From Octopus vulgaris (Eukaryota): a stretch of 64,000 nucleotides of DNA. The notes beneath the pieces are model-generated. The model saw nothing but the letters and a program-made list of their open reading frames with translations. It was not told the DNA's origin and ran no database searches. The stretch spans positions 172,546,001-172,610,000 of the forward strand of contig OX597814.1 in the NCBI GenBank assembly GCA_951406725.2, in the 5' to 3' direction. Of the stretch, positions 54,558 to 60,786 are shown piece after piece; the first letter of the stretch is position 1, and the number at the start of each line of letters is the position of its first letter. The position numbers were made by a program, and so were the translations under genes.

Positions 54558-55779
54558 ATATGTCATAAGCTACGAGACTTTGACATTGCCGGTAAATGGG
54601 GAGAGTGGCTGCATGACGTCCTTAAAGATAGAAGTCATGTAGCTGCAGTCAATGGTGTTCTTTCTGAGGAAACTCAAATCCTTAATGCCATTCACCAGGA
54701 AACTGTTCTGGGGCCATTACTGCTCAAATAGCGCGCTTAAACATGCCTACGGTCACTCGGACAGCCACTGTCACTACCAATGTTGATATAAAAATATCAT
54801 AAGCAATAAAAAACGAAGATGACATCGGAAGCTTACAACAGGACCCGAATTCGAAATACAACTGGTCCAAAATAAACAACCTGCAGTATGATATTGGAAA
54901 ATTTCAAGCACTGCACTATCAATTAACGAATGCACTACAGCCTGCATATACAGGACTTGAAGGCACTACAATTCTAGAGTCACAGGCAGTGAAAGATTTG
55001 GGGATGAGTATGTGTAATGATGCATCATTTTGTATGCACATTACCAAGATGGCAGTAAAGTGCAAATAACTGGCTGGATGGATACTGAGGTTCTTCAAGA
55101 CAAGGGGACCAAGAAACTATGTTGTCCTTGTGAAGAACTTTTGCTCTCAGACGCCTGGACTACTGTTACCAGTTATGGCCACCACATAGTGCCAAACTAA
55201 TAGCGGAGCTTGAATCAGTCCAACGCCACTACACCAATAAGACTGAAGCAGTGCAGTGGATCAGCGACAAGGATAGGCTGAGAAAACTGCAACTTTACTC
55301 CCTGGAGCGAAGGCGTGAGAGATATGCAATAATCTATATATGGAAAACTCTAGAAGGGCTTGTACCTAACTTTGGCATTGAGTGTTATATAAATAACAGA
55401 AATGGCCGCCATTGTATTGTACCAAATATACCATCACTCCATCTCAATTCAGAACCAGGTACTGCAATAGTCTAAGGATCAAAGGCTCACAACTCTTCAA
55501 TGGGCTGCCACAAAAATTAAGAAATCTGCATAAGGTGGAAGTACTTGTCTTCAAAAAGGATATAGACACCCTTCGCTCCACAATACCTGATGAACCAACA
55601 GCCCGACATGAAGTACATATGAGGGCAGCGGAATCAAACTCCCTTATACATCTAATATGCCAACAGCTGGGACAAAGGTACATACAGGAGTGGTGATGTG
55701 AAACAGCCTAGACTGAGGAAATCAGAAAGACCACGGTAGTGCTCCAGCATGACCGCAGCCGCATGGCTAAGTAAAAGAG
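54558..55779 (+). mobile_element. CR1-like LINE, RT C-terminal region plus 3' UTR, decayed
   Basis: HKLR..IAGKWGEWL..L.DR...VNG..S...QETVLGPLL; KDLG; LDYC.QLW.P; LESVQRHYT; RLRKLQLYSLERRRERY.IIY.WK.LEGLVPN; ends GTAAAAGAG. Confidence 0.88.
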
Positions 55780-55895: not shown

Positions 55896-55961
<66 letters not shown>

Positions 55962-56295
55962 ATTAATAGTAATTTTTATTAACTTTTATAGCTTTAGAAT
56001 TTTATGAACTGAACCATGGTTTTAATTATTATTTTTCATCTCCCTATGTGTTAGGTTTTTTTTAAAAAAAAATATTAGCCAAATATGTATAATATCGGTA
56101 CTTATTAATATTAATATATACACTGATATATATTTTGTTTTATTTTGTTCTGTTTACCTTCCTTTATTGTACCAATGTGTATTATATTATATAAGTGTAG
56201 CATTATGATGTATAAGTTTTTATATTTTACATTTTTATATTTTTATATTTATATGTATATGATTATATAATATTTTTCACAATTATAACAAATTT

Positions 56296-56422
56296 AATTT
56301 AATTCTCTGAAGAGGCCGTGGGGCATCCTTGTTAATGCCTCATTTATACCTGCCTTTATGGCTTATAGGTTAAATGAGGTATGACTGCCCTCACTGCCGA
56401 AACAGCTGTCAGTTTTGATTAA
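56296..56422 (+). ncRNA. Type I hammerhead ribozyme candidate with perfect core (56307-56410) and ~85-nt stem II
   Basis: CTGAAGA-GGC...GCC-GAAAC-AGCT-GTC; nested helices GTGGGGCA/TGCCCTCAC, TGCCTCATTTA/TAAATGAGGTA and ACCT/AGGT; imperfect AT-rich stem I. Confidence 0.75.
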
Positions 56423-56603
56423 TTGCATATTATATTTGAAATTTTTTACTTATATCTCTTTATCTTTTTACTATTAATGTATATCTCTTTTTGTATAATG
56501 CCTCTACTCATATGTAATGGTGTATTAAAGTATTGATTGGGTATCATCGGATAGTTGATGTTTTATTGATTTAAGTATGTTTCTCCATTCTCTAATTTTG
56601 TAG

Positions 56604-56636
<33 letters not shown>

Positions 56637-57127
56637 GTATGTATTTATGTATATATGTGTGTATATAAATATATGTATGTATGCATGCATGTATGTGTAT
56701 ATATATATAAATATATATATGTGCATGTATGTGTATATATATGTATTATTGCGTATATGTGTAAATAAATGTATGTATGTTTGTATACATATAATATATA
56801 AGCATACCTGAATACCTACACGCATACTTAGATCAATGAAAAGGACACATGTATATCTCCTACGCTTTTCTCACTCGTCGCCCCACTCTACTGCACCCGC
56901 TGTTGTGGGCAATCAACGGATGAAGATCTGTATTTTGTCACTTTGATTTAAACCGCTGTCATTATATTGACAGACACATGTGATGGATTAAGGAATGATA
57001 CCCTTGACTACATCTATTTTGCACACATTATTTGTCCTAATCAATAGGTTAATTCCCATTAATTGAAAAAAGAAATGAATATTTTTTTTACCTACATATC
57101 ACTTATTGGTGAAATGAGGATACATAA

Positions 57128-60204: not shown

Positions 60205-60786
60205 TATTTCTTTTTTGCCCACAAGGGGCTAAACATAGAGGGGACAAACAAGGGCAGACAAACGGATTAAGTCGATTACATCGACCCCAGTGCGTAATTG
60301 GTACTTAATTTATCGACCCCAAAATGATGAAAGGCAAAGCCGACCTCGGCGGAATTTGAACTCAGAACGTTTCTGCCAGTTCGCCGCCATTCACTGCCTT
60401 AATAATCCTTTCTACTAAAGGCACCAGGCCTGAAATTTTGGGGGAGAGGACTAGTTGATTACATTGACACCAGTGTTTTACTAGAACTTACTTTATCGAC
60501 CCCGAAAAGACCCCAGTGCGTAATTGGTACTTAATTTATCGACCCCAAAATGATGAAAAGCAAAGCCGACCTCGGCGGAATTTGAACTCAGAACGTTTCT
60601 GCCAGTTCGCCGCCATTCACTGCCTTAATAATCCTTTCTACTAAAGGCACCAGGCCTGAAATTTTGGGGGAGAGGACTAGTTGATTACATTGACACCAGT
60701 GTTTTACTAGAACTTACTTTATCGACCCCGAAAAGATGAAAGGCAAAGTCGACCTCGGCGGAATTTGAACTCAGAACGTAACGGCA
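60205..60786 (-). mobile_element. Family B SINE cluster containing a 226-bp tandem duplication
   Basis: 60283-60508 repeated at 60509-60734 with one substitution seen. Confidence 0.88.

What the first reader, a model, noticed from the sequence alone, without database searches (positions are those of the whole stretch)
56296..56422. Perfect-core hammerhead with an ~85-nt extended stem II
Seen: every conserved core base is present (C3 U G A A G A9, G10.1-C11.1, GAAA, GUC triplet). Stem II is a long nested rod of 3+8+11+4 bp, a GC-richer island inside a very AT-rich ~650-bp element between (TAT)n and (TA)n. Established: natural hammerhead stem II is usually short. Inference: this is the best candidate here for an active ribozyme, and the long arm could be a protein (RT) binding or packaging element. 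Stem I is weak in this copy (two U-U mismatches), so activity is uncertain.
Basis: partly seen in the sequence, partly recalled or inferred. Interest (0 to 1): 0.75.

Follow-up and report, generated by a model that had tools for sequence, protein, structure and literature searches.

The report
Long-armed hammerhead of Penelope-like retrotransposon
This is the hammerhead RNA motif in the tail of a young, thousand-copy jumping gene of a known group; its side arm is about four times longer than in described relatives and has kept its pairing through many subfamilies, and it likely cuts only now and then, as a pair.

Summary
The motif is real: a perfect type I hammerhead core with an 85-nt, 33-bp stem II (z -6.6). 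It lies in the 5'-truncated last 700 bp of a young 5.6-kb Penelope-like element whose ORF carries the Hydra-clade motifs. About 980 young and 1,299 older long-armed copies match in this genome. The arm is selected: older subfamilies keep an 85-122-nt rod at 41-94% identity, with compensatory changes, and it is better conserved than its flanks. Published Hydra hammerheads have 3-7-bp stems II. Most copies were made from uncut RNA (25 of 30 leader-bearing loci run through the site), but 10 truncated copies begin at the predicted cut against 3 and 3 at two control positions (p about 0.016): modest evidence of occasional cutting in vivo. What the arm does is untested; a folding scaffold is most likely, a protein handle possible. 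This copy is not special. The scan noted long-stem-II hammerheads before on other DNA of this genome. New variant of a known kind.

The parts
55898..56605 (+). 5'-truncated 3' end (pseudo-LTR region) of a young Hydra-clade Penelope-like element; full unit 5,579 bp with a 947-aa RT + GIY-YIG ORF elsewhere in the genome
   Evidence: 98-99% identical to the ends of copies that carry the ORF
55898..55981 (+). (TAT)n run, internal to the element's 3' UTR; this copy is truncated in it
56293..56306 (+). Stem I, 5' strand; only the two core-adjacent pairs are near-invariant across subfamilies
56307..56313 (+). Core C3-A9 (CUGAAGA)
   Evidence: sequence
56314..56398 (+). Extended stem II, 85 nt, 33-bp interrupted rod; pairing kept across subfamilies
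56399..56402 (+). Core G12-A15.1 (GAAA)
   Evidence: sequence
56402..56409 (+). Palindromic stem III (8 nt), predicted to pair between two hammerheads
   Evidence: invariant in 22 of 22 aligned rows, though the search patterns required it
56410..56411 (+). Predicted cut site (C17|A1.1); 10 truncated copies elsewhere begin at the base after it
56411..56422 (+). Stem I, 3' strand
56600..56605 (+). Fixed 3' end A (about 195 nt after the cut), inferred start of reverse transcription
   Evidence: 64 of 124 young contexts end here, 34 at a second end about 375 nt after the cut
56604..56746 (.). (TA)n-type microsatellite, insertion target
   Evidence: 60 of 64 end-A copies are followed by TA repeats

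Best explanation
The motif is the type I hammerhead in the terminal repeat of a young Hydra-clade Penelope-like retrotransposon, with an unusually long stem II whose pairing is conserved across subfamilies; it likely cuts only occasionally and as a dimer, and the arm likely serves as a folding scaffold. Shown: in a tandem copy one hammerhead lies 513 nt before the start codon and the next 2,225 nt after the stop; copies end at two fixed points about 200 and 375 nt past the cut and sit in (TA)n; most long copies run straight through the hammerhead. Inferred from known PLEs: RNA is made across the tandem junction, the element's GIY-YIG nicks (TA)n, and the RT starts internally at one of the two fixed points, which needs RNA that is uncut at the 3' hammerhead (or re-joined). 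Inferred: two hammerheads pair through the palindrome, perhaps helped by the element's protein, and cut a minority of RNAs; RT running off such a cut end leaves the roughly 1% of copies that begin at the cut. Inferred, least certain: with stems I and III nearly unstable in a 21%-GC UTR, the 33-bp rod is the only part that folds reliably and holds G10.1-C11.1 and the core in place; it may also be a protein handle. The window's own copy is a truncated by-product.
For: Element identity: ORF copies with RT, C-terminal GIY-YIG, DKT, CxCx5C, CxxC..E..N..CxH match the Hydra definition and, by eye, the published alignment. Structure pLTR-ORF-pLTR and inverted pairs. Arm selected: 25 clusters from 91 distinct copies all have 85-122-nt arms, 21 of 25 medoids z <= -2 (median -4.3) against 6 of 25 upstream controls (median -1.0); arm better conserved than flanks (0.94 v 0.77/0.82, 0.85 v 0.68/0.72, 0.74 v 0.58/0.73); window-derived structure on 14 rows: 84% of cells paired, 11 of 35 pairs with two-sided change, against 31-44% and 2-6 when slid; on a tree, 22 pair-keeping v 13 pair-breaking changes, p 0.0005 against one third. 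G10.1-C11.1 probability 0.97, stem I 0.32, stem III 0.002. Cutting: 10 true junctions at +1 among 13 hits v 3 of 5 at -6 and 3 of 6 at -33, one-sided p 0.016; no pile-up at the base of stem II, so structure stalls do not explain it. Dimer design and low activity of PLE hammerheads: PMC4209133; protein-assisted cutting and uncut template: PMC11167929.
Against: No cleavage, binding or expression was measured. The cut-site excess is small (10 v 3 and 3), rests on two controls, and AT-rich microhomology favours some positions: position -8 has 4 junctions against 7 at +1, and direct (TA)n junctions are no commoner at +1 than at -8 or -46; none of about 20 distinct loci in the first 100 of 162 rows began at +1. 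None of 30 leader-bearing loci has its main arm starting at the cut. On all 22 rows RNAalifold keeps only 8 basal pairs: the distal rod shifts register in the most diverged subfamilies, 4 of 25 medoids do not beat shuffles, and the tree test is not significant against one half (p 0.09). The two-sided pair count did not beat its shuffles (47 of 500). Several older subfamilies carry U4C in the core. Nothing distinguishes scaffold from protein handle.
Confidence: 0.7

Rival explanations
1. The arm is mainly a binding site for the element's RT-endonuclease (or a host dsRNA-binding protein) that loads the enzyme near the two RT start points and turns cutting on or off.
For: Conserved length and a recurring one-sided U-rich bulge about 12 bp from the core; 200-375 nt from both fixed ends; the Anolis PLE hammerhead cuts only with its protein (PMC11167929).
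Against: Arm sequence drifts to 41-55% identity and unpaired bases are not invariant; in Anolis the RNA needed for insertion lies downstream of the ribozyme; described Hydra elements move with short stems II. No binding test.
Confidence: 0.25
2. The rod protects the 3' end of the cut RNA: cutting at both hammerheads gives a unit-length, non-polyadenylated message ending 12 nt after the hairpin, used for translation and not as template.
For: Geometry shown by sequence: the arm is on the upstream product; a 3'-cut RNA lacks both RT start points. Viral hammerheads in UTRs aid translation (PMC13725137, passages).
Against: No RNA data with ends (one search had contigs only); cutting appears rare.
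Confidence: 0.12
3. The hammerhead no longer cuts in this lineage; core and arm are kept as a structural or promoter element, or the arm grew by local fold-back and is merely tolerated.
For: Stem I of the youngest subfamily has lost its third pair while it amplified; U4C is fixed in older subfamilies; 25 of 30 long copies come from uncut RNA; other families in this genome also have 54-76-nt arms, suggesting a genome-wide drift to long hairpins.
Against: Core, C17/A17 and palindrome are kept while flanks decay to shuffle level; stepwise compensatory changes through G-U; excess of junctions at the cut.
Confidence: 0.15
4. The 700-bp piece is an independent non-autonomous retrozyme.
For: Non-coding, AT-rich, hammerhead-bearing, about 1,000 copies; a preprint derives retrozymes from pLTRs.
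Against: No head-to-tail short repeat; it is collinear and 98-99% identical with the 3' end of ORF-bearing 5.6-kb copies, and left ends are scattered.
Confidence: 0.03

Closest known systems
Hydra clade of Penelope-like elements and their hammerheads (Craig et al. 2021, PMC8557442; passages, section 11, supplement parts 2 and 58 read)
   Same: C-terminal GIY-YIG, DKT, CxCx5C linker, CxxC/CxH around E and N, no CCHH, (TA)n targets, pLTR and inverted truncated copies, type I hammerhead near the 3' end.
   Different: Unit 5.6 kb with a 2.2-kb 3' UTR and Asn-rich ORF insertions (described: mostly under 3 kb). Stem II 85 nt / 33 bp; the 25 Hydra families in File S2 have 3-7 bp and 3-10-nt loops (Hydra-1_oBim 7 bp + 8 nt). 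Two fixed 3' ends about 175 nt apart against a 30-40-bp tail.
Minimal dimer-type hammerheads of metazoan PLEs (Cervera and de la Pena 2014, PMC4209133; parts 1-2 of 4 read)
   Same: Type I, short helix I, palindromic helix III, G10.1-C11.1, enlarged helix II, most copies single and truncated, opposite-strand pairs 100-700 bp apart.
   Different: Helix II there is 6-8 bp; here 33 bp in several segments. No extra base between A9 and G10.1.
PAc (Poseidon of Anolis; Frangieh et al. 2024, PMC11167929; parts 1-2 of 4 read)
   Same: Two internal RT start points downstream of the hammerhead, uncut RNA as main template, AT-rich targets.
   Different: Other clade; its ribozyme overlaps the start codon, here the cut is 513 nt upstream; no RNA ends at the cut were found there, here some genomic copies begin at it.
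PLE-X1_sMoe / PLE-X1_sTam hammerheads (PMC8557442 File S2)
   Same: PLE hammerheads with enlarged stem II region (9 bp + 35-nt loop in sMoe), marked as deviating.
   Different: Plant EN-minus elements; arm about 53 nt, not described as a paired rod.
Animal non-LTR retrozymes (PMC7229834 passages; bioRxiv 10.64898/2026.07.22.740005 part 1 of 5)
   Same: Type I hammerhead in AT-rich repeats.
   Different: Retrozymes are short tandem non-coding units; this is the end of an autonomous element.

Membership tests
Hammerhead ribozyme (type I) | Core C3 U4 G5 A6 N7 G8 A9, G12 A13 A14, A15.1-U16.1, H17 | tested here: met
   consensus as in PMC3088659 passage
Hammerhead ribozyme (type I) | Core-adjacent pairs in stems I, II, III; stem I open | tested here: met
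   U-A, G-C, A-U present; stem III only as an intermolecular duplex
Hammerhead ribozyme (type I) | Loop I-loop II tertiary contact of fast hammerheads | tested here: inconclusive
   No terminal loop at the canonical distance; only a 1x1 mismatch after 3-4 bp. Contacts cannot be predicted here.
Hammerhead ribozyme (type I) | Self-cleavage after N17 | not testable with these tools
   Indirect only: 10 junctions at +1 v 3 and 3
Hammerhead ribozyme (Rfam families) | Match at gathering score | tested here: not met
   0 matches in the window; the long insert is the probable reason (inference)
Penelope-like elements, EN+ | Single ORF with RT and GIY-YIG | tested here: met
   947-aa ORF in L157, motifs matched by eye to the published alignment; Pfam gave no hit
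Penelope-like elements, EN+ | pLTRs from partial tandems, inverted 5'-truncated copies, tail | tested here: met
Hydra clade | DKT, CxCx5C linker, C-terminal EN without CCHH, CxxC and CxH around E and N | tested here: met
Hydra clade | N-terminal RWK motif | tested here: inconclusive
   RWR at the matching place
Hydra clade | Insertion into (TA)n | tested here: met
   60 of 64 end-A copies
Hydra clade | Generally short (under 3 kb); a description, not a strict criterion | tested here: not met
   5,579 bp
Hydra clade | Placement in an RT phylogeny with reference elements | not tested
   Reference proteins were readable only as supplement text
Non-LTR retrozyme | Short non-coding head-to-tail units, each with a hammerhead | tested here: not met
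Naiad clade | N-terminal endonuclease, no canonical hammerhead | tested here: not met

The most novel reading that the evidence does not exclude
In this lineage the hammerhead has become a long, selected RNP handle and switch: the element's protein binds the stem II rod and decides whether an RNA is cut (a hairpin-capped message) or left whole (the template), and the copies that begin at the cut are a genomic record that Penelope hammerheads do cut in vivo, which has not been shown for an animal PLE in the papers I read.
Probability: 0.25. Interest if true: 0.7.

Novelty: new variant of a known kind. Interest (0 to 1): 0.42.

Why it matters
What hammerheads do in endonuclease-bearing Penelope-like elements is an open question (PMC8557442 calls it unclear; PMC11167929 found cutting dispensable in vitro and no RNA ends at the site). 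This family offers intact young ORFs, a graded series of natural arm variants, two fixed RT start points and a measurable excess of copies starting at the cut, so the question can be tested. Long arms also escape standard descriptors and Rfam, so over 2,000 such motifs in this genome would be missed by usual searches. The window's copy itself is ordinary.

Tried and rejected
Rfam scan: no match. Pfam on the ORF: none. ESM Atlas gave no result. Metagenome scan for relatives in other species: 594 pattern hits, none confirmed, so arm length outside this genome is known only from File S2. Sequencing runs: no RNA holder listed; four runs laid were contigs only, covered the motif, and cannot show ends, strand or level; no editing signal can be read from them. 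RNAalifold on 22 rows kept 8 basal pairs only, so covariation was counted on 14 closer rows; three medoids with private indels or a TA expansion (L191, L205, L196) were left out of both alignments and eight more diverged ones out of the second. First junction search was swamped by overlapping TA matches and showed no +1 peak. Copies ending at C17: none among 124 young contexts apart from one probably unrelated match, but many loci were chosen with downstream sequence, so this is weak. SECIS considered and dropped: the ORF has no in-frame stop. Naiad and Nematis considered from memory, rejected on domain order and linker motif. Literature searches for a long stem II in PLE hammerheads; none described one, but Lunse et al. 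(PMC5785218) and Arkhipova et al. 2017 (PMC5850863) were not held and may do so, and supplements other than that of PMC8557442 were not read. No earlier scan note matched this sequence.

Full report
Observation. The 85-nt arm folds as a 33-bp interrupted rod, z -6.6, 0 of 200 shuffles as stable, and is 48% GC in a 21% GC element. In the ensemble G10.1-C11.1 forms with probability 0.97, the first stem I pairs 0.32, stem III 0.002-0.003; stem III is an 8-nt palindrome whose self-duplex is -11.1 kcal/mol. Rfam does not see it.

What it belongs to. In the window's genome (2.8 Gb) the 141-nt query had 1,076 first-look candidates; all 40 scored were identical, many in opposite-strand pairs 0.6-3.2 kb apart. 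The shared stretch is about 55898-56605. Longer copies carry an ORF upstream. L157 is a full unit: hammerhead, 513 nt, a 947-aa ORF, 2,225 nt, hammerhead; 5,579 bp from cut to cut. The ORF has DKT, an RT core, a CxCx5C linker, a C-terminal GIY-YIG region without CCHH and CxxC/CxH around E and N: the Hydra clade as defined in PMC8557442 section 11, and by eye it follows the Hydra rows of their alignment. Pfam gave no hit and I built no tree with reference elements, so the clade call rests on motifs. The (TAT)n run is part of the 3' UTR. Of 124 young hammerhead contexts, 64 end about 200 nt after the cut (60 of them into TA repeats), 34 about 375 nt after it, 24 run on into the leader, 2 are otherwise. 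The window copy is a truncated end-A copy. That the host is a cephalopod is my guess from recalled repeats, not a result.

Is the arm selected? An RT search returned 150 scored places from 100% to 56% identity; I fetched 60 and found long-armed hammerheads downstream of diverged RT-EN copies. A pattern for older forms matched 1,299 places, control 0; 30 of them were read. The 91 distinct copies in hand form 25 clusters with arms of 85-122 nt, down to 41-55% identity with the window. 21 of 25 medoid arms fold at z <= -2 (median -4.3) against 6 of 25 upstream controls; the arm is better conserved than both flanks in the three nearest subfamilies. With the window's own structure laid on a sequence-only alignment of 14 of the 25 medoids, 84% of cells pair, 11 of 35 pairs change on both sides, several through G-U intermediates; slid controls give 31-44% and 2-6; shuffles were beaten for cells and score (0 of 500) but not for the pair count (47 of 500). 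On a tree from the same alignment, 22 basal and middle pairs show about 22 keeping and 13 breaking changes (p 0.0005 against one third, 0.09 against one half) and 5 two-sided changes against 0-2 when slid. Against: on 22 rows RNAalifold keeps only 8 basal pairs, because the distal rod shifts register. So pairing and length are conserved, exact register is not. Stem I keeps only two pairs near-invariant, and the youngest subfamily has lost the third.

Does it cut? Most templates were uncut: 25 of 30 loci that hold the leader run upstream through the 5' hammerhead, none has its main arm starting at the cut, one inverted arm ends within a few bases of it. Both fixed 3' ends lie downstream of the cut, so the 3' hammerhead was uncut or re-joined in every copy made. 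An earlier scan note suggested testing whether truncated copies begin at the cut. 978 copies have C before the post-cut sequence and 13 do not; of the 13, 10 are true junctions, 2 point mutants, 1 ambiguous. The same test gave 3 junctions of 5 hits at -6 (same trinucleotide) and 3 of 6 at -33; one-sided p 0.016. In a set chosen by a nearby TA motif, 7 of 60 rows begin at +1 (the same copies, not independent), next 4 at -8, none piling up at the base of stem II; direct (TA)n junctions alone are not enriched, and one search showed no peak. I read this as modest support for cutting of a small share of RNAs. Public runs gave contigs only.

How it most likely works. Known for PLEs: short palindromic helix III, dimer cleavage, low activity (PMC4209133; PMC6765202 passages); protein-assisted cutting, internal RT starts that define the tail, uncut template (PMC11167929). 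The anatomy here fits that model step by step. The arm's role is inference. I favour a folding scaffold (it is the only stable part of the motif, and pairing but not sequence is kept), then a protein handle, then 3'-end protection of a cut message, then a tolerated outgrowth.

Comparison and novelty. Hammerheads in PLE pLTRs, and in Hydra elements, are known. Described stems II are 3-7 bp in Hydra, 6-8 bp counts as long in PLEs and viruses, often 2 bp elsewhere; the largest I saw in print is 9 bp plus a 35-nt loop. Seven searches found no 85-110-nt conserved stem II, but two relevant papers were not held. Other families in this genome have 54-76-nt arms and earlier scan notes report long arms in retrozymes here, so elongation is a trend of this genome. 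Verdict: real, selected, a new variant of a known kind; interest 0.42.

Noticed in passing
window 57698-57652 (-): Second type I hammerhead-like motif: 36-nt stem II, 5-bp stem I, near-palindromic stem III, fold z -5.1. Stem I is better than in the finding's motif; probably another PLE end.
   Followed up: partly
window 57407-57343 (-): Third hammerhead-like core with a 54-nt arm; fold no better than shuffles (z -1.3); probably decayed.
   Followed up: partly
window about 55100-55700 (+): Broken reading frame that resembles the tail of a LINE reverse transcriptase (resemblance recalled; translation).
   Followed up: no
L088-L116, L050, L053-L056: A separate, older family with an AT-rich stem II of about 57 nt and the same palindromic stem III; parent element not identified.
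   Followed up: no
L124, L127, L134, L184 and others: U4C core variant is fixed in several older, abundant subfamilies; PMC3088659 says U4C lowers activity in vitro yet suffices for a viroid.
   Followed up: no
L001, L006, L024, L033, L039, L163, L164, L169, L175: In inverted pairs one arm usually ends at about +200 and the other at about +375, as if each target strand were primed at a different RNA site.
   Followed up: partly
L157 ORF: Two long Asn-rich insertions between RT thumb and endonuclease make the protein about 950 aa; with the 2.2-kb UTR the element is twice the usual Hydra size.
   Followed up: no
L155:4070-4142, L143:2080-2168, L151:628-722, L125:5502-5427: Other hammerheads with 54-76-nt arms and different palindromes near divergent RT copies.
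   Followed up: no
window 60283-60736: Two-copy 226-bp tandem repeat, 99% identical.
   Followed up: no
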